Positions 1-62,103 of a stretch of DNA of 64,000 nt are shown in pieces. Position 1 is the first letter of the stretch. The number at the start of each line of letters is the position of its first letter. The translations under genes were made by a program, and so were the position numbers. Under the pieces are notes generated by a model, which saw nothing but the letters and a program-made list of their open reading frames with translations, was not told the origin of the DNA and searched no databases. This DNA comes from Deltaproteobacteria bacterium (GTDB lineage: Bacteria; Desulfobacterota; Desulfomonilia; UBA1062). The stretch covers positions 240,104 through 304,103 of the forward strand of contig JAKPDW010000025.1 in NCBI GenBank assembly GCA_029552245.1, given 5' to 3'.

Positions 1-765
1 GCGAGCTTGTTCTTCACGACCTTGACACGGGTCCTGCTCCCCACGACCCTGTCGCCGTCCTTGATCGGCGCCACGTTCTTTATCTGCAGGCGCACGCTCG
101 CGTAGAACTTGAGCGCGTTGCCGCCCGTCGTCGTCTCGGGGTTGCCGTAGAGCACGCCTATCTTCTGTCGAGTCTGGTTGATGAACACGGCCGTGGTGTT
201 GGTCTTGCTGATGGCGCCGGAGAGCTTGCGCAGGGCCTGCGACATGAGGCGCGCCTGCAGACCCATGTGCGCGTCGCCCATGTCGCCCTCGATCTCGGCC
301 TTGGGCACGAGCGCGGCGACGGAGTCTATGACGACGATGTCCACCGCGTTGGAGCGCACGAGGGTCTCCGCGATCTCGAGGGCCTGCTCTCCCGAGTCGG
401 GCTGGGAGACGAGGAGGTTGTCGATGTCCACGCCGAGCTTCTGGGCGTAGGTGACGTCGAGGGCGTGCTCGGCGTCGATGAACGCGGCGACGCCCCCCGA
501 GGCCTGGGCCGAGGCTATGCAGTGGAGCGACAGGGTGGTCTTCCCGGAGGACTCCGCGCCGTAGATCTCGGTCACCCTGCCCCTGGGGATGCCGCCTATG
601 GCCAGCGCCTCGAAGTCCAGCAGGAGGGACCCGGTGGAGATGACCGGCACGCCCTTGCCTATGGCGTCCGATCCCATGCGCATGATGGAGCCCTTGCCGA
701 AGGACCTCTCTATCTTGCTTATCGCGTCTTCCAGCGCCCGCTTCCTTCCCTCGTCCATGTCAACC
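1..765 (-). CDS. recA: recombinase RecA (C-terminus cut by window edge)
   Basis: Minus-strand translation from ATG (complement of 763-765) reads [29 protein letters not shown]...[35 protein letters not shown]... (Walker A GAESSGKT, RecA core). The ORF has no stop inside the window, so it is absent from the ORF track. Confidence 0.9.
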
Positions 766-1317
766 TCCCGTGCCTTTCAGCCTGCTTTTGTGCAGCGGCG
801 TGTAGCGCGCGCCGCCCGGGGACAGCTCGCTGCGATACAGGACGATCTCCTCGGCCACGAACGCGCCCTGCACCGGTTCGACCCTGAGATCTACCACAGA
901 AGGAACCCTGAGTCTACCGAGGGTGATGTGGCCTGCAAACGGCCTTCGCTCCCTGGGGATTCCGTGAGAGGCGCAGGCCTCGTCCACCCTTTTCGCGAGC
1001 GACCCCAGGGCCTCGGTGTCACCGCTGACGCCCACCCAGACCACCCGGGCCTTCTTGGGGCCGGGAAACGCGCCGAACCCCGACAGGCGGAGCCTCAGCG
1101 GGGAACAAGGGCCGGCGGCGACGTCCAGGTCGCCGGCGATGGGCTGCACATCGGTTTCAGGGATGTCGCCCAGGAACTTGAGCGTGAGATGCATGCCCTC
1201 GGGTCTCACCCACCTCACGCCCCGGTTGCGTTCCGTGAGGCGCTCGACGGCCGCCGCGAGAGTGCCTTTCAGTTCATACGGCAGGTCTAGGGCCACGAAC
1301 GCCCTGATCATGGACAA
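760..1317 (-). CDS. thpR: RNA 2',3'-cyclic phosphodiesterase ThpR/LigT (2H phosphoesterase)
   Basis: 185-aa ORF with two H-x-T-x motifs ([14 protein letters not shown]). Sits between cinA and recA as in the common cinA-ligT-recA arrangement. Its 5' end overlaps the cinA 3' end by about 44 nt, so the true start may be the Met at 1311. Confidence 0.75.
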
Positions 1318-21070: not shown

Positions 21071-21584
21071 GCCCGTGTCGTGACACTATGACGGCGAGGG
21101 GCCTCCTGCGGGGTGGAAACCGGTGAACCTTGCATCCGCAGGGCATGCGAAGGGCGGATGATGCCCTCGGCAGGGGTCGAAGCCCTGCCGGAGGGCGCCT
21201 GAGGCGTGCAGGCCCCGCAGGTGCCGGCCTCCTGGAGAGGCCCGCTTCCCCGCCCTGGCGCTTTGTGCTCCCTCGGCAGCGGAGCCTGCGGGGACGCAGG
21301 CCGGCGATGCCCCCCTCGCGTGTCTGAGGGCGCGAGGGATCCCGAGGGACCCCTGCTTCCGCGCGACCTCGACGGCCAGACCAAGACCGATGAACTCGTC
21401 GAAGAGATTGTATCCCCAGGAACCCCCGCTTCCGGACGACCTCCCCGAGGGAGACCCGACCGTGGTGGACGCCGGTGCAAGAGTCCCTCGTGGAGAAGGC
21501 TCTTCGTTTGCCTAGGCCCAAGCGTCTTGACTGCGCGCCGGGAGGGACCCGAGGCTGCCTGCCGGAGCAGTCCACGGCGCCATG

Positions 21585-24742: not shown

Positions 24743-24851
24743 GCCACCGGTCACGCTCGGGGTGGGCCCTGTTCGGACGTTGTGTCAGACCCAAAGGGCT
24801 AAATAATACAGACAGGCCACCGGTCACGCTCGGGGTGGGCCCTGTTCGGAC
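24743..24851. repeat. two perfect 36-bp direct repeats (GCCACCGGTCACGCTCGGGGTGGGCCCTGTTCGGAC) separated by a 37-bp AT-rich spacer; period 73 bp
   Basis: Copies at 24743-24778 and 24816-24851, identical. Spacer gttgtgtcagacccaaagggctaaataatacagacag is far below local GC. The second copy overlaps the last codons of the 2-hydroxyacid dehydrogenase ORF. Confidence 0.6.
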
Positions 24852-27891: not shown

Positions 27892-27907
27892 TGGCACGGG
27901 TATTGCT
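27892..27907 (+). promoter_or_regulatory. sigma-54 (RpoN) promoter: TGGCAC-gggta-TTGCT
   Basis: TGGCAC at 27892-97 and TTGC at 27903-06 with the canonical 10-nt GG-to-GC spacing, in an AT-rich island (aataaaaactataaatgaac just upstream, IHF-like), 60 nt upstream of the ATG at 27967. Confidence 0.6.
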
Positions 27908-27966
27908 GTCATGAGGGGTAGATTGTTTCATATTATAGCAATAAAAGTGGCGTGGGAGGTGACGGT

Positions 27967-28296
27967 ATGGCAGGTGACGTGAACTTCAAGGACACGAGGG
28001 CCGGCAGGAGGACCTCGGATGCGAGGTGTGCAAGGGCGGCCCAGGCCATCATGGAGATCCTCAAGTACCAGTGCCAGGGGTTCATCCTCCCACCCCCGGA
28101 GGTCAGGCACCTCCTGGGCCTCGATCCCGAAGACAGGGCATGGCACCTGAACGAGCGCGTCGCATTGCTCAAGAAGGAGCTCGCAAGGCGCTTCGTGGCC
28201 ATGGACGTGAGTCCCATCGTGGGTGCCACGATCCAGCTCTACCGCGTGCCCCCCGTGAACGGGGCGCCGTATCCTTCGCGTTACCTGAGGCAGTGA
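27967..28296 (+). CDS. small hypothetical protein (109 aa) downstream of sigma-54 promoter
   Basis: GGGAGGTGA SD then ATG 27967 (internal Met of track ORF 27952). No recognised domain. Confidence 0.45.
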   Translation: MAGDVNFKDTRAGRRTSDARCARAAQAIMEILKYQCQGFILPPPEVRHLLGLDPEDRAWHLNERVALLKKELARRFVAMDVSPIVGATIQLYRVPPVNGAPYPSRYLRQ

Positions 28297-28436
28297 CAGC
28301 CTGCTTCTCGGGCCCAGGCGCCCGTATCTGCCACGGGCCCTGCCTTCCTGCCCGAGGTCTCTTCCACAGTCACATCGCCCTCGGGGTTCGCCCTTGCGCA
28401 GGCCAACGGGCGAGCCGACCTCGGGCATCCCCACCC

Positions 28437-28525
28437 CGCACCCTGCCGCGAACGGGCACGCGGGTGTTCCCGACACTTCATGCCTGTCCCGTGCAGCCCG
28501 CACCCTGCCGTGAACGGCCACGCGT
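28437..28525. repeat. two 27-bp direct repeats (CCGCACCCTGCCGYGAACGGSCACGCG) with 62-bp period, upstream of the DUF362-ferredoxin gene
   Basis: Copies at 28437-28463 and 28499-28525 with 25/27 identical and a 35-bp spacer. Confidence 0.5.
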
Positions 28526-30478: not shown

Positions 30479-31405
30479 ATGTCTCTGCGCAAGCTGTCCG
30501 ACATCTTCAGTCTCGAAGAGGTTCTCACCCTGGACATGGCGGTGTTGTTCGCCTTGGCCGCGCTCGCGGCCGGAGGTCCAGCCGGGACGAAAGGCATCTT
30601 GGCGACGAACTGCGTCATCGTGGCATGCATCGTTTCCGCTGCCGTGCTCTGCAGGAACAGCGGCAAGAGGGCGCTCACGGTCTTCAGGGACTGGTACGTT
30701 CTCGTCTTCCTGATCACGATCTACCTGGAGAACAGGACGCTCATCCCGCTGGTCAACCCACGCGAGTACGACGCGCTGGTCATGGCCGCAGACAGACTGG
30801 TGTTTCTCGGAGAAGACCCCACCGTGCTCCTCGAGAAGGTGATGCATCCCTTGCTCACCGAGTTCCTGCAGCTCGTCTACGCGAGCTTCTACCTCCTCCC
30901 GCTCACCCTGTGCATGGCCCTGTACGCATCGCGCACCACCAGGAACGAGTTCCATGTCGCCGCCTCGACCATCCTCATGGGGTTCTACCTGTCGTATCTC
31001 GGGTACTACCTCATGCCTGTGGCGGGCCCCAGGTTCTTCATGGAAGGGCTCCACACGAAGGAGCTGGAAGGGCTCTGGACGTTCGAGTTCGTCAGGGAGG
31101 CCCTCGCCCGGGCCGAGGGGCGGATGCTGGACTGCATGCCGAGCGGCCACGCACTCGTCTCGGTGCTCACGACGTTGCTCGCATACCGGTATGTGCGCTC
31201 TTTTGCGCCGTGGTCCCTCGTTTGGACCGTACTGCTCCTCTTCTCCACCGTCTACCTGCGTTACCACTACGTCCTGGACCTCGCCGTCGGGTCGATGCTC
31301 GGGATCCTGGTCTTTACGATAGGGCCCCGCCTGGCGATAGCCTACCAGGAGGGCTCGGGCTCAAGACGATGCGTCGCAGGCGGGCTGGAGATCCGTGAGG
31401 GTTGA
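30479..31405 (+). CDS. PAP2-superfamily integral membrane phosphatase/phosphotransferase-like protein
   Basis: Six predicted TM helices. PAP2 motifs CMPSGHALVSV (PSGH) and YLRYHYVLDLAVG (SRx5Hx3D-type, His/Asp retained). Confidence 0.6.
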   Translation: MSLRKLSDIFSLEEVLTLDMAVLFALAALAAGGPAGTKGILATNCVIVACIVSAAVLCRNSGKRALTVFRDWYVLVFLITIYLENRTLIPLVNPREYDALVMAADRLVFLGEDPTVLLEKVMHPLLTEFLQLVYASFYLLPLTLCMALYASRTTRNEFHVAASTILMGFYLSYLGYYLMPVAGPRFFMEGLHTKELEGLWTFEFVREALARAEGRMLDCMPSGHALVSVLTTLLAYRYVRSFAPWSLVWTVLLLFSTVYLRYHYVLDLAVGSMLGILVFTIGPRLAIAYQEGSGSRRCVAGGLEIREG

Positions 31406-31692
31406 GGGGGCTCGGGCCTTAGGCATCAGGGTCGCTGGCTGCGGGCATGGTGGTTTTTTTCGCTGATGGTGATCCCAAAGGCTTGAGGGGGCTCGAAAGG
31501 CCGGCGCCAGGGACCGATCGATCGACTCCGGGTGGTCGGCGAAGCCGCCTGTCTCGGCCATGTGCCCGGCGGGCGAGGCGCCGGATGACGTGCGTGGGCG
31601 GGGGTGGTGAACACCATGGCCCCTCTCCCCATCGACCCCGCCTGGGGCGGCATCGCAGTCTGGGGTGAGGGTGGTGCGACGTGGGCCGAGGG

Positions 31693-37023: not shown

Positions 37024-37487
37024 CCCGTGTTGCTCGCACGCGAACCCCGGGTCTCTCGCCGGCCTCCGTGTCCCGACTGCGGGGGTGCTCGTTTCTCGTA
37101 CGTTGGCCCGAGTTTCTCCCTGGGGCCCACGGCCGGGCGGGAGGCCCCGGTCACGAAGATGCCAGTACACACACGAACTCGGGTTGTCACCGCTTTGTGC
37201 GACACCGAAAGCGCAGGCGTCAGGCCGCCCGGTCTTTTCTCGCGCGTGCCCCGGGTTCCTTTCCACGACCTGGGCACAGGTGTCCTTTGCTCCCCAGGGT
37301 GCCAGGCACCAGGCGGCCTTCGGTTCGGTCGGTCGTGCACCCTCTTGTGGTGGGCTCCTTGGGTCCGATCGGGCGGCGGTCGGATAGTGCCGGCCGCACG
37401 TCTCACGGGAGAGGGCCCTGGGGGTGTCACCGGCCTGTGGCGTCTGGGATGCCCAGGGGCATGCCGAGGCGCACAGACGGACGCGCG

Positions 37488-37583
37488 CGCCTTCAACGTC
37501 TGGGGAAGACAGAAGGAGATCGATGTCGCCGAGACAGGCGCGATCGCCCACGGAGGCTCACGCCTTCAACGTCTCTGGAAGAC
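37488..37583. repeat. two 23-bp direct repeats (CGCCTTCAACGTCTSKGGAAGAC), period 73 bp
   Basis: Copies at 37488-37510 and 37561-37583 with 21/23 identical. The second overlaps the stop region of the small minus-strand ORF 37566..37967. Confidence 0.5.
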
Positions 37584-43771: not shown

Positions 43772-45439
43772 ATGGCCGTCCATGACCTGGCAGGGAAGCC
43801 CGTGCCAAGATCGATGCTCGTGGACACCGCCTCGCTGGTGGATGCGTACTACCGCACCAGGCCCGACCCGGCCCACCCGGGGTGCCGCGTGTCGTTCGGC
43901 ACCTCGGGACACAGGGGGTCGTCGATCGCCGCCAGCTTCAACGAGGACCACATCCTGGCCATCACGCAGGCCATCTGCGATTACAAGAGGGAATTCGGGA
44001 TCACGGGCCCCGTGTTCGTGGGCAGGGACACCCACGCGCTGTCGGAGCCGGCCTTCAAGACCGCGATCGAGGTGCTTGCAGCCAACGCTCTCACGGCGAT
44101 GGTGGACGAGGACCTGGGGTTCACCCCCACGCCGTCGGTGTCCAGGGCCGTCATCGAGTACAACCGCTCGAGGTCATCGGACCCCGCGGACGGGATCGTG
44201 ATCACCCCTTCGCACAACGGCCCCGAGGACGGCGGGTTCAAGTACAACCCGCCGGAGGGAGGCCCCGCGGACACCAAGACCACGGGGTGGATCGAGAAAC
44301 GCGCGAACGCCCTGTTGGAGGGCCGCCTGGCCGGTGTCAGGCGGATCCCCTACGAACGGGCGCTGTCAGCCCCCACCACCACCAGGTACGACTTCACCGG
44401 GCCGTATGTCGAGGGGCTCGCCTCGGTCATCGACATGGGATCCATCGCATCTTCCGGCCTCAGGCTCTGCGCCGACGCCCTGGGCGGTTCGGGCGCGTCC
44501 TACTGGCACCGGATAGCCGAGCGCTACGCCCTGTCCATAGATGTCCTGCACGACACCGCGGATGCGACCTTCGGCTTCATGACCCTCGATCACGACGGCC
44601 GGATCCGCATGGACTGTTCGTCGCCGTACGCCATGGCGTCCCTCGTGGCGCTGAAAGACCGCTACGACCTCGCCTTCGGCAACGACCCGGACTTCGACAG
44701 GCACGGGATCGTGACCGGGAAGGCCGGGCTCATGAACCCGAACCACTTCCTGGCGGCGGCCGTGGTGCACCTCTTTTCCTCGAGGCCCTCCTGGCTGCCG
44801 TCCTCGGGCGTGGGCAAGACGCTCGTGAGCAGCGCCATGATTGACAGGGCCGCGGAGCTCGTCCGAAGGGAGCTCTTCGAGACCCCGGTAGGGTTCAAGT
44901 GGTTCGTCGAGCCCCTGATCGGGGGCCGCGTGGCCTTCGCGGGAGAGGAGAGCGCAGGCGCGTCGCTCGTGTGCATGGACGGCTCGGTGTGGACCACGGA
45001 CAAGGACGGCATCGCCATGGCGCTCGTCGCGGCGGAGATGCTCGCGCGCACGGGCAAGGACCCCTCGGATCTCTACCGGGAACTCGAAGAACGCTTCGGC
45101 GTGTACCACTACGAGAGGATCGACGTGCCTGCGGGCCCGAGGGAGAAGGCGGCGCTCTCGGGAATCACCCCGGACATGGTCGAGGCGAGGGTGCTGGCCG
45201 GCGATGCGGTGACAGCCGTCCTCACGAGGGCGCCGGCGAACGGCGCGGCCATCGGCGGCATAAAGGTCGTAACGGCCTCGGGCTGGTTCGCTGCTCGGCC
45301 CTCGGGCACGGAGGACGTCTACAAGATCTACGCAGAGAGCTTCAGGGGTCCCGACCATCTGGCCCTCATCCAGGAAGAGGCGCGCTCGCTCGTAAGCACC
45401 GTCTTCGGCCGCCAGGCCTCCACGGGGGGTGGGGCGTGA
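43772..45439 (+). CDS. pgm: phosphoglucomutase (alpha-D-glucose phosphate-specific)
   Basis: 555 aa. GTSGHRG, Ser-loop region, SHNGPEDGGFKYN, GEESAG motifs. Confidence 0.9.
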   Translation: MAVHDLAGKPVPRSMLVDTASLVDAYYRTRPDPAHPGCRVSFGTSGHRGSSIAASFNEDHILAITQAICDYKREFGITGPVFVGRDTHALSEPAFKTAIEVLAANALTAMVDEDLGFTPTPSVSRAVIEYNRSRSSDPADGIVITPSHNGPEDGGFKYNPPEGGPADTKTTGWIEKRANALLEGRLAGVRRIPYERALSAPTTTRYDFTGPYVEGLASVIDMGSIASSGLRLCADALGGSGASYWHRIAERYALSIDVLHDTADATFGFMTLDHDGRIRMDCSSPYAMASLVALKDRYDLAFGNDPDFDRHGIVTGKAGLMNPNHFLAAAVVHLFSSRPSWLPSSGVGKTLVSSAMIDRAAELVRRELFETPVGFKWFVEPLIGGRVAFAGEESAGASLVCMDGSVWTTDKDGIAMALVAAEMLARTGKDPSDLYRELEERFGVYHYERIDVPAGPREKAALSGITPDMVEARVLAGDAVTAVLTRAPANGAAIGGIKVVTASGWFAARPSGTEDVYKIYAESFRGPDHLALIQEEARSLVSTVFGRQASTGGGA

Positions 45440-49051: not shown

Positions 49052-49402
49052 GGGTGTTTCCCTGTCACAACGTACAGGAAACCGGCCGACCTGTGCAACG
49101 GCGACGAGCGGCGTGAAGTGCTCGATGACGTTCCAGCGCCTCGCGGCATGGAGGCCTTTCCCTCCAGGGGCGCTCTTTTCGGTGTCGCGAGGTGAAGCTG
49201 GGCATCCAGCCCCCACCCGGTCGTCTTCGCGAGGCGCCTCCCCCTCTCAGGGGGCCCCGGTCTCTCTCGCGTCCGCCGACTTGGTCCGGGGGCTCCCCTC
49301 GAAATGAGGCATCCGGCAGCTTGAAGCCTGGGTATGATCCTGCGCCGAGGTTGACTTCATGGGGCATGGCCCGTAGAATGCCCCAAAGGACGCGAAGGGG
49401 GC

Positions 49403-50185: not shown

Positions 50186-50799
50186 AGATCCTGGCTGCCA
50201 CCTCCAACCCGGGAAAGATCTCGGAGATCAGGCGTATCCTGGGGGCCGGCGGCATCACCGTGGTGACCCCCGGCGAGATGGGCATCGAGATCGACGTGGA
50301 GGAGAACGGGGACACCTTCGAGGACAACGCCGTGGCGAAGGCCGTGGCCTACCTCAGGGCGAGCGGCATGCCCAGCCTCGCCGACGACTCGGGGTTGTGC
50401 GTGGAGGCCTTGGGCGGCAGGCCCGGGGTGAGATCCGCGCGTTTCGCGGGACAGGGGGCCTCCGACAGGGAAAACTACGAGCTCCTGCTCAGGCTCATGG
50501 AGGGCGTGAGCGACAGGAGGGCGGCCTTCGTGTGCACGGCGGCCCTCGCGCTCGAAGACGGCCGCATCGTAACGGCCACGGGCAGGTGCGAGGGCCTGAT
50601 CCTCGAAGCGCCCAGGGGCGCCTCGGGCTTCGGGTACGACCCGGTGTTCCTCGAGCCCGCAAGCGGGAAGACCTTCGCCGAGCTCGCGGAAGACGAGAAG
50701 AACGCGATCAGCCACCGGGGAAGAGCGCTCGTCGCCCTCATGGCGACCCTCGAGGAGATGGGCCTGCTTCCGGGCAAGGATCCCGCATCGTGTGCATAG
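50182..50799 (+). CDS. rdgB: dITP/XTP pyrophosphatase RdgB (Ham1 family)
   Basis: GTG overlaps the rph stop. [20 protein letters not shown]...EDNAVAKA...SGFGYDPVF. Classic rph-rdgB pair. Confidence 0.85.
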
Positions 50800-50919
50800 G
50801 GTGGCCGGGCTCGGCGAAAGCCTGGTGAGCCTGGGGCGGGGAGCGCACCGCGGCCGCCCGCTCTCCCGGGTCCACCCCTTCCTGCCGGGCGGGGCCCGGG
50901 TTCTCAGCGAACCCTGAGA

Positions 50920-51133
50920 CTGGACCCCGTTCGCATGTGGGTGAATCGGGGGGGCCCACCAGAAAAAGACCACCCCTAGGCCTGGACATCGTGCGCACGA
51001 GGGTGAATCCGCCCTCCAGTACCGGGAAGCGAGCGACGACAGGGCTGGACCCCGTGCGCATGAGGGTGAATCTTCCCCGCCCGCAGGTCGTGGAGGCGCG
51101 CTGGACTGGGCCTTGTGCGCATGAGGGTGAATC
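50920..51133. repeat. CRISPR-like degenerate direct-repeat array: four 28-bp repeats (consensus CTGGACCCCGTGCGCATGAGGGTGAATC) with 33-35-bp spacers, period 61-63 bp, plus more-degenerate copies to about 51290
   Basis: Repeat ends at 50947, 51009, 51072 and 51133. Copies differ at 2-4 positions. Spacers are unrelated GC-rich sequence. A 62-bp period is not a multiple of 3 and the region has no credible ORF. Sits between rdgB and archease. No cas gene in the window. Confidence 0.5.
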
Positions 51134-51401
51134 TCGGGCGGACTTTTACGGTCCGTCTGTGCAATCCGCATCTTCCATGGGGAGCGTCCCTGCGGCTTTG
51201 TGCAACGAGCGCAACGTGAGGGCGCGGGGCGACCCCGTCCTTTCAAGCGCTCTCCCCAGGTTTCGTGCAACCGCAGGCCCGCCTTCGAGGGGGATGCACC
51301 GCCTGCCGTTCGGGCATGGGAGGTCGATCGCGTCTTTTGCCTGCGGGCATGCTGGATGTGTACAAGCAGCCCCTGTTGTGATAGCATTTTCTTTTCCGGC
51401 C

Positions 51402-51803
51402 ATGCCGTACGCTCTCGTGGACCATACCGCGGATATGGCGCTTCGGGTCAGGGCCCCGTCTATCGAGGCCCTCTTCGCCGAGGCCGCCCTCGGCCTCTGC
51501 GAGGTGCTCGACGCCCGTACCTCGTATCCCGAGGAGACCCTGCGCGTGGAACTCGAGGGCATGGACATGGAGGACCTCCTCGTGAGGTGGTTGCAGGAGG
51601 TGCTCTACCTGGTGGGGGTGAAGGGGTTCAGGGTGTACACCGTGGGCCGCATCGCCGTTGCGGGAACTTGCCTGGCGGCGGAGCTCGAAGGCGCGTTCGG
51701 GTGCGGGACTCTCGCCCTCGAGGTGAAGGCCGTGACCTACCACGGGCTCTCGATCGAGCGCGACGGGGGGGACGTCACGGCCACCGTCGTTCTCGACGTG
51801 TAA
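51402..51803 (+). CDS. archease (RtcB activator)
   Basis: MPYALVDHTADMALRVRAPSIEALFAEAA... 133 aa, archease signature. Confidence 0.8.
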   Translation: MPYALVDHTADMALRVRAPSIEALFAEAALGLCEVLDARTSYPEETLRVELEGMDMEDLLVRWLQEVLYLVGVKGFRVYTVGRIAVAGTCLAAELEGAFGCGTLALEVKAVTYHGLSIERDGGDVTATVVLDV

Positions 51804-51814
51804 TGGGGGGATCC

Positions 51815-53257
51815 ATGCCTCAACCGGTCAAACGCCGCATCGACGAGTACCGCATCGAGATCGAGCGTGTCCCGCCCATGAGGAGCAGGGGGCTCGTGTA
51901 CGCCAACAGGGCGATCGAGCGCACGATCGAGCACGACAACGTGCTGCAGCAGGTGGTGAACGTGGCGTGCCTGCCGGGCATCATCGGGCCCTCGATCGCC
52001 ATGCCCGACATCCACTGGGGCTACGGGTTCCCCATCGGCGGGGTGGCCGCCTTCTCCCTTGACGAGGGGGTCATCTCCCCGGGAGGGGTGGGCTACGACA
52101 TCAATTGCGGTGTGGGGTGCATCCTCACCGGGCTCGAGGAGAAGGACGCCGCCTTGCATACGGAGGTCCTGCTGGCGGCGCTCTTCAACGAGGTCCCCTC
52201 GGGAGTGGGGTCCAAAGGCGGCATCACCGGCGTCACCGAGAAGGAGTTCAGGAGGGTGCTCGAGCAGGGGGCCGGCTGGGCCGTGAGGAAAGGGTACTTG
52301 CCGGCCGAAGACCTCGACGCCTTCGAGGACGGGGGGTGCATCCCCGGCGCCGACCCCGATGCAGCCTCTGCCAGGGCCTACGAGAGGGGCATGCCCCAGC
52401 TCGGGACCCTGGGTTCCGGAAACCACTTCCTGGAACTGGACGTGGTCCAGGAGATCCATGACCGGAAAACCGCCGAAGCCTTCGGGCTCTTCGAGGGACA
52501 GGTCGTGGTGCTCGTGCACACGGGGTCGCGGGGGTTCGGGCACCAGGTCTGCGACGAGTACGTGCGGGACATGATAGCGGCGTCCGCCAGGTACGGCATA
52601 GACCTGCCGGACCGCCAGCTCGCCTGCGCGCCCGTGCGGAGCAGGGAGGGCAGGGAGTATCTCGGGGCCATGGCCGCCTCGGCCAACTTCGCCTTCGCGA
52701 ACCGGGCGATCGTGGCGTATCTCGTGAGGCGCGCGTTCGAGCGCGTCTTCGGCCTCTCCTTCGAGAGGCTCGGCATGCGCATGCTCGTGGACTGCTGCCA
52801 CAACGTGGCCAAGGTCGAGCGGGTGGAGTGGGAGGGCCGGGTGGTGGAGGCCTGTATCCACCGCAAGGGCGCCACGAGGGCCCTGCCCGCAGGCGATGTG
52901 AGGCTGCCCGCGAGGTACGCGGTCACGGGCCAGCCCGTGCTCGTTCCCGGCGACATGGGCAGGATGTCCTTCATCCTGTGCGCCCTCGACGGCGCCAGGG
53001 AGACCTTCTTCAGCGCCTGCCACGGCGCCGGGAGGCTGCTGTCGAGGCACGAGGCGAAGAGGGTATCCAGGGGCAGGAAGATCCTGGACGAGCTCAGGCA
53101 CAAAGGGATCCGGGCCATGGCGGCCTCGAAGGCCACGCTCGCGGAAGAGATCCCGGACGCCTACAAGGACGTTTCCGATGTCGTGGACACGGTCTCGGGC
53201 GCGGGCATCGCCAGGCCCGTGGCCCGGCTCAGGCCGTTCGCCATGGTCAAGGGGTGA
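51815..53257 (+). CDS. rtcB: RNA-splicing ligase RtcB (3'-phosphate/5'-hydroxy nucleic acid ligase)
   Basis: GGGGGGA SD. RtcB motifs PDIHWGYGFPIGGV, GYDINCG, GSGNHF, HTGSRGFGHQV, CHNVA, ACHGAGR. An alternative ATG at 51803 overlaps the archease TAA. Confidence 0.9.
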   Translation: MPQPVKRRIDEYRIEIERVPPMRSRGLVYANRAIERTIEHDNVLQQVVNVACLPGIIGPSIAMPDIHWGYGFPIGGVAAFSLDEGVISPGGVGYDINCGVGCILTGLEEKDAALHTEVLLAALFNEVPSGVGSKGGITGVTEKEFRRVLEQGAGWAVRKGYLPAEDLDAFEDGGCIPGADPDAASARAYERGMPQLGTLGSGNHFLELDVVQEIHDRKTAEAFGLFEGQVVVLVHTGSRGFGHQVCDEYVRDMIAASARYGIDLPDRQLACAPVRSREGREYLGAMAASANFAFANRAIVAYLVRRAFERVFGLSFERLGMRMLVDCCHNVAKVERVEWEGRVVEACIHRKGATRALPAGDVRLPARYAVTGQPVLVPGDMGRMSFILCALDGARETFFSACHGAGRLLSRHEAKRVSRGRKILDELRHKGIRAMAASKATLAEEIPDAYKDVSDVVDTVSGAGIARPVARLRPFAMVKG

Positions 53258-53897: not shown

Positions 53898-54155
53898 GGT
53901 CTCCTCCGGGAATGCAGTAGAGTGTCCCTATAGCGGCAAACGCCACGCCAAGTCAATGCCCAACTCCCTTGCCCCACCCCCCGGGACCCCGCCGTGCCAT
54001 GCGTGGTGGGTGCGCCGCGCACGAGGAAACCCCTTCCCTGGGATCCGCTCGCGTCCCCGGAAGTCACCGCAGAGCACAGGCCCCCGGGAGAGTGCCGCGC
54101 CCCTTCCCCGTGCCCGGTACGTGGGCTGCCCCGTCACCACCCGGCCCGTTTTCCC

Positions 54156-54185
54156 TTGACACACAGGCCGCCTTTTGTCGATAAT
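54156..54185 (+). promoter_or_regulatory. sigma-70 promoter for greA (TTGACA-18-GATAAT)
   Basis: TTGACA 54156-61, GATAAT 54180-85. Confidence 0.45.
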
Positions 54186-54194
54186 CCCGTCATC

Positions 54195-54230
54195 GATACT
54201 GGTAGTGCCCTACCGGTATCTTTTTCTTTT
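54195..54230 (+). terminator. intrinsic terminator/attenuator in greA leader (GraL-like): 11-bp stem, 4-nt loop, T tract
   Basis: GATACTGGTAG-tgcc-CTACCGGTATC followed by TTTTTCTTTT, located between the -10 box and the greA SD (GAGGAAG) and ATG. Confidence 0.5.
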
Positions 54231-54244
54231 GTGAGGAAGCGAAC

Positions 54245-55719: not shown

Positions 55720-56337
55720 GTCCCACCGTCTAACCCATGGGCAGGCCAAAGTCAAACGGGTGCTCGCAGGCAGGGCGGCCCGGCGCCCGGCGATCGCCGG
55801 GACCACAACCGTGCGGCGGAAGCGGGCCCTGGTCCGGGGAAGACGGCAGGGCATGGGGGGCGGGGTCCTTGAAGGGCGCCGAGCGCGGGGTCTCGCGCGT
55901 GCCTGCCGAGGACTCGGTGCGTGCAGGCTGACCCCTCGGGACATCCGGCGCCTTCGCCGTGGGCCGCGAAGAGGGCCGCGCCCGTGTGCACCGGAGGTCT
56001 GTTCAGGGCCGTGTATCCCGAGCAGGATGTGGACCCTCTCGCCCGCGCACACCGGGGGTCTGGTGGGAGATTTGATTCCATAGGCAGGCTGGACGCCGTC
56101 ACGCACGTACTCACCGGAATTGGGAGGAAGGTCCCTCCGGAACGAGGCCCACGAACAGGCGTCGCGCCCCCGCACATCGGGGTTGGGTGGGTGGCCTGTC
56201 TCCAGTCGATCTACGTCCTCAGTCTGGCCCGTGCACACCTGCGGTCTGGCCCCGGAGCGGTCTTTCCCCGGGGCAAGGCTGCCGGCCTTGACCCCGGATG
56301 TTCCGGGGGTTACTATGCCCAGCGGGATACCGAGAGC

Positions 56338-57453
56338 ATGAGGCGCCTGATCGTAGTCTTCGTAGCGACCATCCTGGCGCTGGAGGTGTGCGCCGTCCCC
56401 GGCGCGCGCGCGGAGACGCCGGTGGTGGGGCTCGTCGTCCCGCTGAGCGGGAGGTGGGAGGCGGTCGGCCAGAAGATTCTCCGCGGGGTCATGTGCGCCT
56501 CCGGGGTCTTCGGGGGCGAAGGGCTGGGCATCGAGTTCGTGGTGAAGGACTACGGGGACGACATGGGCAAGCTCGCATCCATCGTGGACGGGCTCGCCTC
56601 TGACGACAGGGTCCTGGCCGTCATCGGGCCGGTGGGCGAGAAGGCGGTCGAGGTCGCCTGCTCGCATGCCACGCCGGCCGGCCTGCCTGTGATCTCGTTC
56701 ACGCAGGCGGAGCCGGCGGGGTCGAAAGGCACGGTGTGCTTCAGGAACTTCCTCACGGTCGAGACGCAGGCGCATGCGCTGCTGGCCGCCGCCGCCTCGC
56801 TCGGGGTCACGAGGTTCGCGGTCTTCGGCCCGGACGACCAGTTCGGCAAGACCCTCGCGCACCACTTTACCCGACTCGCGCCCACCTACGGCGTGCGCGT
56901 CCTTGCCGCAAGGACCTACCCTCCCACGCACCCCGACTTCCAGCTCGAGCTCAGGGAGCTGTTCAAGGGCATGGGCGAAGGGGCACGCCAGGTGCAGGCG
57001 TTGCTCGTGCCGGACGAGGCCGCGAACGCGGGCATGATCGCCTCGTACCTCGCCTACCTCAAGAGGCAGGGCATAAGGCTCTTCGGCCCCAGCCTGTGGG
57101 ACAGCCCCGACCTCATGCGGGCAGGTGGGGCGAACGTCGAGGGCGCGGTCTTCTTGAGCGGGTTCTTCCCGCACGGCTACTCGTCCGCCGCGAGGGATTT
57201 CGCGGAGGCGTTCAGGCCGTACGGCGCGAACCCCGGGGTGTGGGAGGCGAGCGCCTACGACACGGCGCGCATCGTCTCGAACATCCTGCAGGAAGGGGTG
57301 CGTTCCCGCAAGGGCGTCGCCGCGCGGCTCGCTTCCGTCAGGCGGTACGACGGCGCGAGCGGCCTCACGAGCCTGTTCCCCGACGGGTCGCTCGAGAAAC
57401 AGCCGAGGGTGCTCTCGGTGCGGGGCGGCGCCGTGGTGGAGATCTTCCCGTGA
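56338..57453 (+). CDS. periplasmic ligand-binding protein, type 1 PBP (LivK/branched-chain amino-acid binding-like)
   Basis: Internal Met at 56338 with signal peptide MRRLIVVFVATILALEVCAVPGARA. Leu/Ile/Val-BP-like fold. No cognate permease or ATPase adjacent. Confidence 0.6.
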   Translation: MRRLIVVFVATILALEVCAVPGARAETPVVGLVVPLSGRWEAVGQKILRGVMCASGVFGGEGLGIEFVVKDYGDDMGKLASIVDGLASDDRVLAVIGPVGEKAVEVACSHATPAGLPVISFTQAEPAGSKGTVCFRNFLTVETQAHALLAAAASLGVTRFAVFGPDDQFGKTLAHHFTRLAPTYGVRVLAARTYPPTHPDFQLELRELFKGMGEGARQVQALLVPDEAANAGMIASYLAYLKRQGIRLFGPSLWDSPDLMRAGGANVEGAVFLSGFFPHGYSSAARDFAEAFRPYGANPGVWEASAYDTARIVSNILQEGVRSRKGVAARLASVRRYDGASGLTSLFPDGSLEKQPRVLSVRGGAVVEIFP

Positions 57454-61172: not shown

Positions 61173-61772
61173 ATGGACAGGGCCGTAAGGGCGATCGTGC
61201 TCGTGTGCGCGGTGGAGGCGGCCTTCCGCCTCGCCTCGCCGCTCGTACCCATCGATGTCCTTGCCTGGACGCTCGTCGCGAGGGTCGTGGAGGCGGCCTG
61301 CATCCTGGCCACGGCATTCGGCGAGAGCGGCATCAAGGCAGCCTCCATCCCCTTCGAGCTCGCCGTCGGCCTGGGGGCCTCGGCCGCCTTCGGCTGCCTC
61401 GTGTTGCTCGCGGATGCCGCCTGGCTCGCCCTCTTCGGGGTCAGGCCGCTTGCGGCTCTCCGTGCGGGAGGTCCCGCAACGTTTACGCCCGTTTACCTGT
61501 CGGCCGCCTGCCTCGCGGGGCCGTTCACCGAGGAGCTCTTCTTCAGGGGGCTCGTCTACGGCCGGCTGAGGAAGGTGTTTCCCGCATGGGCGTGCGTGCC
61601 CGTGACCGCCGCCGCCTTCGCCTCGCTCCACGGCGGGCTGCCCCTGGTCCCGTTCACGGGGGGTGTCGTGTTCGCCCTCCTGTTCGAGTGGAGGCAAAAC
61701 GTCTGGCCCGGCTTCGTCGTGCACGCGGCGGGAAACGCGGCGCTGTGGCTGTTGCCGCTGGTGTGGCCATAG
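61173..61772 (+). CDS. CPBP-family (CAAX/Abi) intramembrane metalloprotease
   Basis: Motif 1 EELFFRG, motif 2 FASLHG, motif 3 HAAGN, in a polytopic membrane protein. Confidence 0.7.
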   Translation: MDRAVRAIVLVCAVEAAFRLASPLVPIDVLAWTLVARVVEAACILATAFGESGIKAASIPFELAVGLGASAAFGCLVLLADAAWLALFGVRPLAALRAGGPATFTPVYLSAACLAGPFTEELFFRGLVYGRLRKVFPAWACVPVTAAAFASLHGGLPLVPFTGGVVFALLFEWRQNVWPGFVVHAAGNAALWLLPLVWP

Positions 61773-61995: not shown

Positions 61996-62103
61996 CCGGG
62001 TGGTATGGCGGAGCCGCGCTGAATGCCGCTTCCCCACCCTGAGAGAAATCCCCGAGTGAACGGACTATCCAGGGTGGTATGGCGCAGGCGCGCTGAAGGC
62101 CGC
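61996..62103. repeat. two 34/35-bp imperfect direct repeats (GGGTGGTATGGCGSAGSCGCGCTGAAKGCCGC), period about 73 bp, in about 750 bp of non-coding DNA
   Basis: Copies at 61996-62029 and 62069-62103, about 31/34 identical. Confidence 0.45.

What the first reader, a model, noticed from the sequence alone, without database searches (positions are those of the whole stretch)
50920..51300. CRISPR-like degenerate repeat array (28-bp repeat, ~34-bp spacer, 62-bp period) immediately upstream of archease-rtcB
Seen in sequence:
- Four units ending at 50947, 51009, 51072 and 51133 share CTGGACCCCGTGCGCATGAGGGTGAATC with 2-4 substitutions each.
- They are separated by unrelated 33-35-bp GC-rich spacers.
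- Weaker copies of the GTGCRC...GTGAGGG core follow, to about 51290.
- The 62-bp period is incompatible with coding, and the only ORFs here are reflections of the repeat.

The geometry matches a CRISPR array. The inter-repeat divergence and the absence of any cas gene in 64 kb argue for an orphan, decaying array or a different class of interspersed repeat.

The position is notable. The array lies in the leader of the RNA-repair operon archease-rtcB, whose regulator in other bacteria (RtcR) carries a CARF domain of CRISPR ancestry. That link is established knowledge but only circumstantial here.
Basis: partly seen in the sequence, partly recalled or inferred. Interest (0 to 1): 0.6.

Follow-up and report, generated by a model that had tools for sequence, protein, structure and literature searches.

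The report
Orphan CRISPR-like mini-array, one of several
Four decaying copies of a 28-base repeat, separated by unrelated 33-35-base inserts, really do sit before the archease-rtcB RNA-repair genes, but they lie outside that operon's transcript, show no sign of working as CRISPR immunity, and are one of at least three such mini-arrays in this bacterium's unusually long intergenic regions.

Summary
The four 28-nt repeats (starts 50920, 50982, 51045, 51106; period 62/63/61) and their three unrelated 33-35-nt spacers are real and far beyond chance. The "weaker copies" to 51290 are not supported, apart from one gapped candidate near 51205.

Every CRISPR function test I could run failed. There are no cas genes in about 73 kb and no AT-rich leader. 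Ten metagenome contigs show no spacer turnover. Spacers have no phage or plasmid matches. The repeat is absent from 185,579 species genomes, IMG/VR, Rfam and protein space.

The region is specific to this lineage: syntenic relatives have only 76-316 nt there. It evolves about four times faster than third codon positions. A promoter conserved with relatives (51359-51387) lies between the array and archease, so the array is not in the operon leader. No RtcR gene or sigma-54 promoter is present.

Two more mini-arrays occur nearby (55976-56249, and one just beyond the window). They share the core CCCGYGCRCAY. Five two-copy units were also found. All periods fall at 60-63 or 73-74.

Best reading: orphan arrays built in situ by CRISPR-integrase-type duplication-insertion, now decaying. 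Main rival: a STAR-like non-CRISPR repeat family.

The parts
50800..50919 (+). Lineage-specific 5' flank of the array. It is 77.5% G+C with a chain of GC-rich hairpins, and has neither an AT-rich leader nor a terminator-like U tract.
   Evidence: absent from relatives
50920..50947 (+). Repeat 1, CTGGACCCCGTTCGCATGTGGGTGAATC (2 substitutions from the consensus)
50948..50981 (+). Spacer 1 (34 nt), unrelated to the other spacers
50982..51009 (+). Repeat 2, CTGGACATCGTGCGCACGAGGGTGAATC (3 substitutions; contains the 12-nt perfect palindrome TCGTGCGCACGA)
51010..51044 (+). Spacer 2 (35 nt)
51045..51072 (+). Repeat 3, which equals the consensus CTGGACCCCGTGCGCATGAGGGTGAATC
51073..51105 (+). Spacer 3 (33 nt)
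51106..51133 (+). Repeat 4, CTGGGCCTTGTGCGCATGAGGGTGAATC (3 substitutions)
51199..51228 (+). Possible degenerate terminal copy, GTGCAACGAGCGCAACGTGAGGGCGCGGGG. It is about 92 nt after the core of repeat 4, matches only with gaps, and is weakly supported.
51347..51388 (+). Context, not part of the array: the conserved archease-rtcB promoter block. The -35 TGTACA is at 51359-51364, followed by a 17-nt spacer containing TGTG, then the -10 TAGCAT at 51382-51387. It ends 14 nt before the ATG at 51402.
55976..56249 (+). Sister mini-array A2 in the tatA to periplasmic-binding-protein intergenic region. Five slots start at 55976, 56037, about 56099 (degenerate), 56162 and 56223, with period 61-63. Each copy is about 27 nt with the core CCCGYGCACAY followed by CGGGG.
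28431..28525 (+). Two-copy unit, period 62 (repeat about 31 nt, 90% identity; insert about 31 nt), intergenic
21339..21443 (+). Two-copy unit, period 73 (repeat about 32 nt, 84% identity), intergenic
24743..24851 (+). Two-copy unit, period 73. Two 36-nt repeats, 100% identical, flank an unrelated 37-nt insert of 43% G+C. The second copy overlaps the last codons and the stop of a minus-strand 2-hydroxyacid dehydrogenase gene.
37477..37583 (+). Two-copy unit, period 73 (repeat 34 nt, 85% identity; insert 39 nt). The second copy overlaps the 3' end of a minus-strand DUF6160 gene.
61996..62103 (+). Two-copy unit, period 74 (repeat 34 nt, 88% identity; insert 40 nt), intergenic

Best explanation
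The feature is an orphan, non-coding mini-array with CRISPR geometry. Four diverged copies of a 28-bp repeat with a short palindrome are separated by three unrelated 33-35-bp inserts.

Shown:
- It is specific to this species and absent from the same site in syntenic relatives.
- It lies upstream of, not within, the archease-rtcB transcription unit.
- It is identical in structure in all sampled populations.
- It diverges between strains at least as fast as third codon positions.
- It is one of at least three mini-arrays that share the core CCCGYGCRCAY followed by a G-run, plus five two-copy repeat-insert-repeat units. All lie in this organism's enlarged intergenic regions, with periods only at 60-63 or 73-74 bp.

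Inferred:
- These structures were built in place by repeated events that each duplicate a fixed-length target (about 28 or about 34-36 bp) and insert a fixed-length piece of unrelated DNA between the copies.
- The only enzyme known to make that product is the CRISPR adaptation integrase Cas1-Cas2, acting at its own arrays or off-target ('neo-CRISPR').
- The array is therefore most likely a relic of such integrations. It now decays neutrally and has no role in rtcB expression or in current immunity.
For: - Geometry and significance of the repeats.
- Spacers are unrelated and Tandem Repeats Finder is negative. This excludes a neutrally diverged tandem duplication (for the sister arrays).
- In-situ origin. 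Relatives with the same rph-rdgB-archease-rtcB-L25-greA-tatC order have only 76-316 nt at this site. They share only the promoter block 51347-51388.
- Neutral decay. The diverged strain L022 differs at 20 of 602 intergenic positions: repeats 2/112, spacers 4/102, flanks 14/388. Third codon positions of the flanking genes differ at 10 of about 1160. Both repeat changes hit otherwise conserved positions.
- Family. Array A2 lies at 55976-56249 and array A3 at L175:516-663, with an A1-like terminal copy near L175:731. All share CCCGYGCRCAY followed by a G-run and are co-oriented with the next gene. I estimate the chance of A3's exact core match at about 1e-3 from the background frequencies.
- Quantised periods. 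All eight non-coding spaced repeats fall at 60-63 or 73-74. None of that kind occurs in 55.8 kb of relatives or 193 kb of unrelated controls. In a Monte Carlo test, none of 2,000,000 uniform draws was as tightly clustered.
- The 24743/24816 pair is a perfect 36-nt duplication around an unrelated 37-nt insert of 43% G+C. Divergence cannot produce that.
- Off-target Cas1-Cas2 integration that seeds new arrays has been reported in E. coli (Nivala et al. 2018, as cited in 10.1101/148544, PMC7054753 and PMC11788318).
- Orphan arrays with a private repeat and no spacer turnover are read as defunct in Zhang and Ye 2017 (PMC5294841).
Against: - No cas1 or cas2, or any other cas gene, in the 64-kb window. 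None in the gene calls of about 9 kb beyond its ends. The rest of the genome could not be examined.
- No AT-rich leader on either side.
- No spacer or insert matches any phage, plasmid or IMG/VR sequence.
- The repeat matches no Rfam CRISPR-DR family. It matches no array in 185,579 species genomes.
- The three arrays share only a core of about 11 nt, not the whole repeat. Functional arrays of one CRISPR system do not look like this.
- Eight such structures in about 71 kb would be an unprecedented density of off-target integrations.
- Within array A1, all 8 substitutions fall in positions 5-19, while the tails CTGG and GGGTGAATC are invariant ((15/28)^8 = 0.007). This hints at past constraint of some other kind.
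- Periods of 62 and 73.5 bp also equal 6 and 7 helical turns, which a protein-phasing model would predict.
Confidence: 0.45

Rival explanations
1. This is a non-CRISPR dispersed intergenic repeat family, analogous to the STAR elements of staphylococci. A short GC-rich palindromic signature (CCCGYGCRCAY followed by GGG) recurs every six helical turns in several intergenic regions. It is spread by an unknown mechanism and may be bound by a dimeric DNA-binding or nucleoid protein. In current classification it would be a 'false-CRISPR' of the unknown class.
For: - Three arrays share only the core signature and have array-specific tails. This is how STAR-like elements are defined, by a signature inside direct repeats separated by spacers at many intergenic loci (PMC5294841).
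- There are no cas genes, no spacer diversity and no leader.
- Periods of 62 and 73.5 bp equal 6 and 7 turns of 10.4-10.5 bp.
- The tails of the A1 repeat are invariant while its centre varies.
- All three arrays lie upstream of, and co-oriented with, a gene.
Against: - No known mechanism other than a ruler-type integrase creates a conserved 28-36-bp repeat around unrelated inserts of fixed length. The perfect 36-nt pair at 24743 cannot be explained by selection on diverging duplicates.
- The two-copy units have unrelated sequences and lack the core, so each would need its own binding protein.
- Two of those units sit between convergent gene ends, not near promoters.
- Strain comparison shows no present constraint on the repeats.
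- The STAR signature itself is absent.
- The core 11-mer is not enriched outside the arrays.
Confidence: 0.33
2. This is a functional orphan CRISPR array. It is transcribed and processed, and used in trans by cas genes located elsewhere in the genome, as reported for some isolated arrays.
For: - The repeat has CRISPR-like architecture: 28 nt with a possible 6-bp hairpin and GCGC loop, leaving a 7-nt 3' tail. That hairpin is 89% paired across copies.
- Spacer lengths are uniform.
- Isolated arrays that work with distant cas loci are known (PMC5294841).
Against: - Repeats are only 86-93% identical to the consensus, and the putative stem carries mismatches in 3 of 4 copies with no compensatory change.
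- Spacer content is identical in ten contigs from different samples, including a strain about 3% diverged.
- No protospacer match was found.
- There is no leader or promoter-like site.
- The sister arrays carry different repeats, which one Cas6/Cascade set would not serve.
- The region evolves without detectable constraint.
Confidence: 0.07
3. This is a cis-regulatory element of the archease-rtcB operon. It would act either as a structured 5' leader RNA or as an array of operator or enhancer sites.
For: - The array lies in the intergenic region before archease-rtcB and is co-oriented with it.
- The whole 601-nt region folds somewhat better than shuffles (z = -3.0 with 20 shuffles, one of which folded as well).
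Against: - The promoter conserved in four relatives lies downstream of the array, 14 nt before the ATG. Relatives run the same operon with 76-127 nt of intergenic DNA and no array.
- There is no sigma-54 motif in this region and no RtcR-like gene in the window.
- The units share no fold, with z-scores from -0.84 to +1.68, and Rfam gives no match.
- Sister arrays precede unrelated genes.
- There is no sequence constraint between strains.
Confidence: 0.04
4. This is a chance resemblance, or an ordinary tandem duplication of a 62-bp unit that has drifted.
For: The array is small (four copies), the repeats are degenerate, and the genome is G+C-rich, which inflates chance similarity.
Against: - The core occurs 4 times against 0.01 expected.
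- Shuffled windows give no spaced repeats at all.
- The spacers are no more alike than shuffles while the repeats are about 90% alike. Neutral drift of a whole-unit duplication cannot do that.
Confidence: 0.02

Closest known systems
Orphan (isolated) CRISPR arrays judged defunct, such as the isolated Streptococcus pyogenes array described by Zhang and Ye 2017 (PMC5294841)
   Same: There are no nearby cas genes. The repeat is not shared with any functional system. The same spacers occur in every isolate or contig, with no turnover. The array is short.
   Different: Here the repeats are more degenerate (86-93% identity) and there is no recognisable leader. The genome carries at least three such arrays with only a shared core, plus two-copy units. 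Whether cas genes exist elsewhere in the genome is unknown.
Neo-CRISPR arrays from off-target Cas1-Cas2 integration (Nivala, Shipman and Church 2018, Nat Microbiol; known to me only through citing papers)
   Same: A repeat-length genomic target is duplicated around a spacer-length insert at a non-CRISPR site. The repeats are site-specific rather than canonical. The arrays can arise inside otherwise conserved housekeeping neighbourhoods.
   Different: That work used E. coli overproducing Cas1-Cas2, and natural cases were only circumstantial. Here no Cas1-Cas2 has been seen. The density (eight loci in about 71 kb) is far beyond anything reported. Two size classes would need two adaptation modules.
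STAR-like elements and other 'false-CRISPRs' (Cramton 2000; Purves 2012; Zhang and Ye 2017, PMC5294841)
   Same: A GC-rich signature sits inside short direct repeats separated by spacers. The elements occur at several intergenic loci of one genome, have no cas genes or spacer diversity, and are mistaken for CRISPR by geometry-based finders.
   Different: The STAR signature T[GAT]TGTTG[GT]GGCCC[CA] is absent. Here the repeat is 27-28 nt with a palindromic core and a strict 60-63 period. The host is a G+C-rich Desulfobacterota-type MAG, not a staphylococcus.
Listeria monocytogenes RliB-type cas-less CRISPR (from my own knowledge: Sesto et al. 2014; L. monocytogenes isolated CRISPRs are also mentioned in PMC5294841)
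   Same: It is a small array with about 29-nt repeats, 35-36-nt spacers and no adjacent cas genes.
   Different: RliB is conserved across strains, expressed as a stable RNA and processed by PNPase. No expression data exist here, and the sequence shows no constraint.
RtcR-controlled rtcBA operons of Enterobacteria (established knowledge)
   Same: An RtcB RNA ligase operon lies downstream.
   Different: There is no RtcR and no sigma-54 promoter here. The operon partner is archease rather than RtcA, and the promoter is a conserved sigma-70-type one next to the start codon.

Membership tests
Bona fide CRISPR array | Three or more direct repeats of 23-50 bp that are nearly identical | tested here: inconclusive
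   Four repeats of 28 bp, but with 2-3 substitutions each relative to the consensus (mean column identity 92%).
Bona fide CRISPR array | Unique spacers of similar length between the repeats | tested here: met
   Spacers of 34, 35 and 33 nt. Pairwise alignments are no better than shuffles, and Tandem Repeats Finder is negative.
Bona fide CRISPR array | cas genes adjacent or elsewhere in the genome | tested here: not met
   No Cas family among about 45 ORFs of the 64-kb window (Pfam). None in the gene calls of about 9 kb beyond its ends. The rest of the genome could not be tested with these tools.
Bona fide CRISPR array | AT-rich leader with a promoter next to the first repeat | tested here: not met
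   The 5' flank is 77.5% G+C and the 3' flank 66%. No promoter-like site was found.
Bona fide CRISPR array | Spacer content varies between strains or populations | tested here: not met
   Ten contigs from different samples carry the same array. The only diverged strain (L022) differs by point changes only.
Bona fide CRISPR array | Spacers match mobile elements (protospacers) | tested here: not met
   Phage and plasmid blastn gave only hits with E >= 0.6. IMG/VR exact scans of 21-nt spacer cores gave 0 hits. These databases may not hold this organism's phages.
Bona fide CRISPR array | The repeat belongs to a known repeat family or recurs in other arrays | tested here: inconclusive
   No Rfam match at E <= 10. 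Only chance singletons in GTDB genomes and IMG/VR. No hits in protein space. However, two further mini-arrays in the same genome share the 11-nt core. The metagenome scan was uninformative.
Bona fide CRISPR array | Transcribed and processed into crRNAs | not testable with these tools
   No expression data. The putative 6-bp hairpin is 89% paired but shows no compensatory change.
False-CRISPR in the sense of Zhang and Ye 2017 | Repeat-spacer structure, isolated from cas genes, no spacer diversity across genomes | tested here: met
   criteria from PMC5294841. It would fall in their 'unknown' class, because it is neither a tandem repeat nor a simple repeat.
STAR-like element | Signature T[G/A/T]TGTTG[G/T]GGCCC[C/A] within the repeats | tested here: not met
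   There are 3 matches with 2 mismatches in the window (3.1 expected), and none lies in any array.
Neo-CRISPR (off-target Cas1-Cas2 integration) | Duplication of a fixed-length target flanking a fixed-length unrelated insert at a non-CRISPR site | tested here: met
   A1 has 28 + 33-35 nt. A2 and A3 have about 27 + about 34 nt. The two-copy units fit about 34-36 + 37-40 nt. The 24743 pair is a perfect 36-nt duplication around 37 nt.
Neo-CRISPR (off-target Cas1-Cas2 integration) | Array absent from the orthologous site of relatives (origin in place) | tested here: met
   Five syntenic loci (L027, L157, L158, L161, L162) lack it.
Neo-CRISPR (off-target Cas1-Cas2 integration) | A Cas1-Cas2 module in the same genome whose canonical repeat length and sequence anchors match the neo-repeats | not testable with these tools
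Tandem repeat (VNTR/MIRU type) | The whole unit is conserved head to tail | tested here: not met
   Tandem Repeats Finder is negative for all three arrays, and the spacers are unrelated.
RtcR/sigma-54-regulated rtcB operon | Adjacent rtcR gene and a sigma-54 promoter (TGGCAC-N5-TTGCW) upstream of rtcB | tested here: not met
   No sigma-54 activator domain was found among the window ORFs, and no motif with up to 2 mismatches lies in 50800-51401. A conserved sigma-70-type promoter is present instead.

The most novel reading that the evidence does not exclude
The enlarged intergenic regions of this uncultured Desulfobacterota-type bacterium record frequent natural off-target spacer integration by one or two CRISPR adaptation modules. 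Each event duplicated a target of about 28 bp (or about 34-36 bp) and inserted about 34 bp (or about 37-40 bp) of captured DNA. Sites carrying a CCCG-YGCRCAY-(C)GGG hairpin-like anchor were hit repeatedly and grew into neo-CRISPR mini-arrays. The one before archease-rtcB is an example. It would be the first dense, natural example of CRISPR arrays being born de novo, and of Cas1-Cas2 acting as a mutagen that lengthens intergenic DNA.
Probability: 0.25. Interest if true: 0.8.

Novelty: new member of a known kind. Interest (0 to 1): 0.4.

Why it matters
As first stated, an orphan CRISPR in the leader of an RNA-repair operon would have suggested a functional tie between CRISPR-like RNA and RtcB. 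That tie is not there. The array lies upstream of the operon's conserved promoter, is missing from relatives that have the same operon, and evolves without constraint.

What remains of interest is the pattern behind it. If a CRISPR integrase made them, they show how new arrays arise in nature and how adaptation enzymes scar their own genome. If not, they point to an unknown ruler-like duplication-insertion process, or to a new STAR-like repeat family.

Either way, the case is a useful warning for CRISPR finders that rely on geometry alone.

Tried and rejected
1. RNA structure. A shared GCCC(N)CCAG motif in the spacers seemed to pair with CTGG and GAGGG. The spacers proved no more alike than shuffles. 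The units have no common fold or favourable z-score. Strain L022 breaks the CCAG.
2. Self-cleaving ribozyme, tRNA-like or Y-RNA-like element next to rtcB. Rfam shows nothing at E <= 10.
3. Coding repeat. The period is not a multiple of 3, and only repeats 2 and 3 share a reading frame.
4. XerC/dif-like or DnaA-box reading of GTGCGCAT and TGTGGGTGA. The similarity covers only 7-9 nt and the second arm is missing. I rejected this by eye.
5. Transposon-end (TnsB/MuA-type) binding-site array. There are no inverted partner copies and no transposase or integrase in the window.
6. Metagenome scan with a paired 10-mer pattern. 
7. Searching for spurious ORFs over similar arrays. A six-frame repeat-peptide word search and a phmmer search against 1.84 billion representative proteins both gave nothing.
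8. Presence/absence polymorphism of the other repeat units. All other contigs are at least 99.9% identical to the window, so the test was uninformative.
9. Homology between the A1 and A2 repeats by alignment score. The result was p = 0.013, but the reverse-complement control scored the same. The family link therefore rests on the shared core and its independent recurrence in A3.
10. The original Nivala et al. paper could not be read.
Full report
**Observation**

The region 50920-51133 holds four direct copies of a 28-nt sequence, consensus CTGGACCCCGTGCGCATGAGGGTGAATC. They lie at 50920, 50982, 51045 and 51106, with start-to-start spacing 62, 63 and 61. The 19-nt core with up to three mismatches occurs four times in the window against 0.01 expected from shuffles, and nowhere else in the 64 kb.

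The three intervening stretches (34, 35 and 33 nt) are no more similar to one another than shuffled sequences: p = 0.35-0.99. Tandem Repeats Finder sees no period-62 repeat.

The claimed weaker copies out to 51290 are not supported. A weight matrix of the four copies finds nothing in 51134-51400 above the 1-3% background level. Only a gapped match, GCGCA(ACG)TGAGGG at 51209, is suggestive.

**Context**

Gene calls on ten public contigs that carry the identical archease give this order: RNase PH, Ham1/RdgB (ends at 50799), a 602-nt gap, archease (51402-51803), RtcB (51815-53257), then L25, GreA, TatC and TatA. RtcB homologues name the lineage as Desulfomonilia or 'Deltaproteobacteria bacterium' MAGs.

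Five syntenic loci from relatives (RtcB 74-78% identical; one found through its 59%-identical archease) keep the same gene order. Their rdgB-archease gaps are only 76, 96, 103, 127 and 316 nt.

The only part of the 602-nt gap that aligns with the relatives is 51347-51388. That block is a sigma-70-type promoter, TGTACA-N17(TGTG)-TAGCAT. It is present at the same distance (14 nt) from the ATG in L157, L158 and L161. The array therefore lies 225-470 bp upstream of the promoter, not in the leader of the operon.

There is no sigma-54 motif in the gap. No RtcR-like gene, cas gene, transposase or integrase was found among about 45 ORFs scanned against Pfam. The RtcR/CARF association therefore does not apply here.

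**CRISPR membership tests**

- The repeat matches no Rfam family at E <= 10, and Rfam includes the CRISPR-DR families.
- Its 18-mer occurs only as chance singletons in 185,579 species genomes and in IMG/VR.
- No predicted protein in two very large collections looks like a spurious ORF over a similar array.
- Both flanks are G+C-rich (77.5% and 66%), so there is no leader.
- A 6-bp hairpin with a GCGC loop is possible (89% of cells paired), but no compensatory change supports it. The 62-nt units have no common fold.
- The spacers have no significant match in phage or plasmid collections or in IMG/VR, and none in the window itself.
- Ten contigs from different metagenomes carry the same array. 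The single diverged strain (L022) differs only by point changes.

In that strain the intergenic region differs at 20 of 602 positions (3.3%). The repeats differ at 2 of 112, the spacers at 4 of 102 and the flanks at 14 of 388. Third codon positions of the flanking genes differ at 10 of about 1160 (0.86%), and the L25-greA gap at 2 of 347.

The array thus evolves at least as fast as third codon positions, and both repeat changes hit conserved repeat positions. By the criteria of Zhang and Ye 2017 (PMC5294841), this is an orphan or 'false' CRISPR: isolated from cas genes, with a private repeat and no spacer turnover.

**Wider pattern**

A scan of the window for spaced direct repeats changed the picture. 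All non-coding hits fall at distances 61-63 or 73-74.

- The 61-63 class comprises the array itself, a second array at 55976-56249 and a pair at 28431.
- The 73-74 class comprises pairs at 21339, 24743, 37477 and 61996.

The second array (A2) has five slots with period 61-63. It lies in the 618-nt gap between tatA and a periplasmic-binding-protein gene, a gap that is 133 nt in relative L157. Tandem Repeats Finder is again negative.

In 55.8 kb of relatives and 193 kb of unrelated control loci, the same scan finds only in-frame coding repeats or true tandem arrays.

As a prospective test I fetched 6.9 kb beyond the right end of the window. It contains a third array (A3, L175:516/576/637, period 60-61), followed at about L175:731 by CCCGTGTGCATCTGAGGGAGATC. 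That sequence closely resembles the repeat of the first array.

Anchored alignment shows that all three arrays share the core CCCGYGCRCAY followed by a G-run, with array-specific tails. All three are co-oriented with the next gene.

In a Monte Carlo test, eight loci drawn uniformly from distances 30-150 never clustered as tightly as observed in 2,000,000 trials.

The pair at 24743/24816 is a perfect 36-nt duplication around an unrelated 37-nt insert of 43% G+C. It is present in independent assemblies.

**Interpretation**

A conserved repeat next to unrelated inserts of fixed length cannot arise from neutral drift of a tandem duplication. Selection on diverging copies cannot explain a perfect young pair either.

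The structures look like products of a process that duplicates a target of fixed length and inserts a fragment of fixed length. The known enzyme that does this is the Cas1-Cas2 integrase. In E. coli it has been reported to integrate off-target and seed new arrays (Nivala et al. 2018, as cited; I could not read the paper itself).

I therefore favour, at about 0.45, an in-situ origin by CRISPR-type integration followed by neutral decay.

The main rival, at about 0.33, is a non-CRISPR, STAR-like dispersed repeat family, possibly protein-bound and phased at six or seven helical turns. In its favour:

- only the core is shared between the arrays;
- the tails of the first array's repeat are invariant while its centre varies;
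- no cas gene is in reach.

Against it:

- no mechanism is known that would generate the structures;
- the two-copy units are unrelated in sequence;
- no present constraint is detectable.

The STAR signature itself is absent. A functional trans-served CRISPR (0.07), a regulatory role for rtcB (0.04) and chance or simple duplication (0.02) are unlikely, for the reasons given above.

**Limits**

- Only about 73 kb of one genome could be examined.
- The metagenome scan was wasted on a poorly chosen pattern.
- The constraint analysis rests on one diverged strain with 20 differences.
- The family link between arrays rests on an 11-nt core.
- The integrase itself has not been seen.

The decisive test is to check the complete MAG for cas1/cas2 and for canonical arrays of matching repeat lengths.

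Noticed in passing
window 55976-56249: A second CRISPR-like mini-array (A2) lies 4.8 kb downstream, between tatA and a periplasmic-binding-protein gene whose real start is near 56338. It has five slots of about 27 nt with period 61-63, and the copies are 74-85% alike. It shares the core CCCGYGCRCAY followed by a G-run with the reported array. The gap is 618 nt here against 133 nt in relative L157.
   Followed up: partly
L175:516-663 and about 731-753 (about 6.2-6.4 kb beyond the right end of the window, reverse orientation): A third mini-array (A3) has copies TCGTGCCCGCGCACATACGG... at 516, 576 and 637 (period 60-61). A terminal copy, CCCGTGTGCATCTGAGGGAGATC, resembles the A1 repeat. The array lies upstream of, and co-oriented with, an FGGY-family kinase gene.
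   Followed up: partly
window 21339-21443, 24743-24851, 37477-37583, 61996-62103 (period 73-74); 28431-28525 (period 62): Five two-copy repeat-insert-repeat units have mutually unrelated repeat sequences (31-36 nt, 84-100% identity) around unrelated inserts of 31-41 nt. All are non-coding or overlap only the last codons of a gene. The 24743 pair is perfect (36/36) around a 37-nt insert of 43% G+C. No such units were found in relatives or controls.
   Followed up: partly
window-wide, for example 50800-51401, 55720-56337, 53898-54244, 49217-49402: Intergenic regions of this species are systematically longer than in syntenic relatives. rdgB-archease is 602 nt against 76-127 nt. HAD-rph is 357 against 123. 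L25-greA is 347 against 178. The gap after tatA is called as 471 nt (618 nt with the corrected gene start) against 133.
   Followed up: partly
window 51359-51401: The archease-rtcB promoter, TGTACA-N17-TAGCAT with a TGTG extended -10, is conserved in relatives. It ends only 14 nt before the ATG and there is no Shine-Dalgarno sequence. This implies a nearly leaderless mRNA.
   Followed up: partly
window 50800-51401 compared with L022: This intergenic region is a divergence hot spot between strains: 3.3% against 0.86% at third codon positions and 0.58% in the L25-greA gap.
   Followed up: partly
window 27892-27907 (+): A perfect sigma-54 promoter consensus, TGGCACGGGTATTGCT, lies 45 nt upstream of a small ORF at 27952-28296 that has no Pfam match.
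   Followed up: no
window 760-1317 (-): A LigT/ThpR-type 2',5' RNA ligase / 2',3'-cyclic phosphodiesterase gene sits in the pgpA-cinA-ligT-recA cluster. It is a second RNA-end-healing enzyme in the window and is unrelated to the array.
   Followed up: no
L162:3471-3530 (rdgB-archease gap of a relative): This relative's 316-nt gap holds a long, near-perfect inverted repeat (CCTTTTCATTTTGGCGATTTCATC...GATGAAATCGCCAAAATGAAAAGG). A different insertion has occurred at the same site in another lineage.
   Followed up: no
window 44118-44145 (-): The best off-array match to the repeat weight matrix is CTGGACACCGACGGCGTGGGGGTGAACC (19 bits), inside a coding region. It is probably chance (about 0.2 expected).
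   Followed up: no
window 31386-31495 and 61201-61320: Two further spaced repeats have periods 81 and 75 (83% and 71% identity). They lie at a gene end and inside an Rce1-like ORF, and do not fit the two period classes.
   Followed up: no
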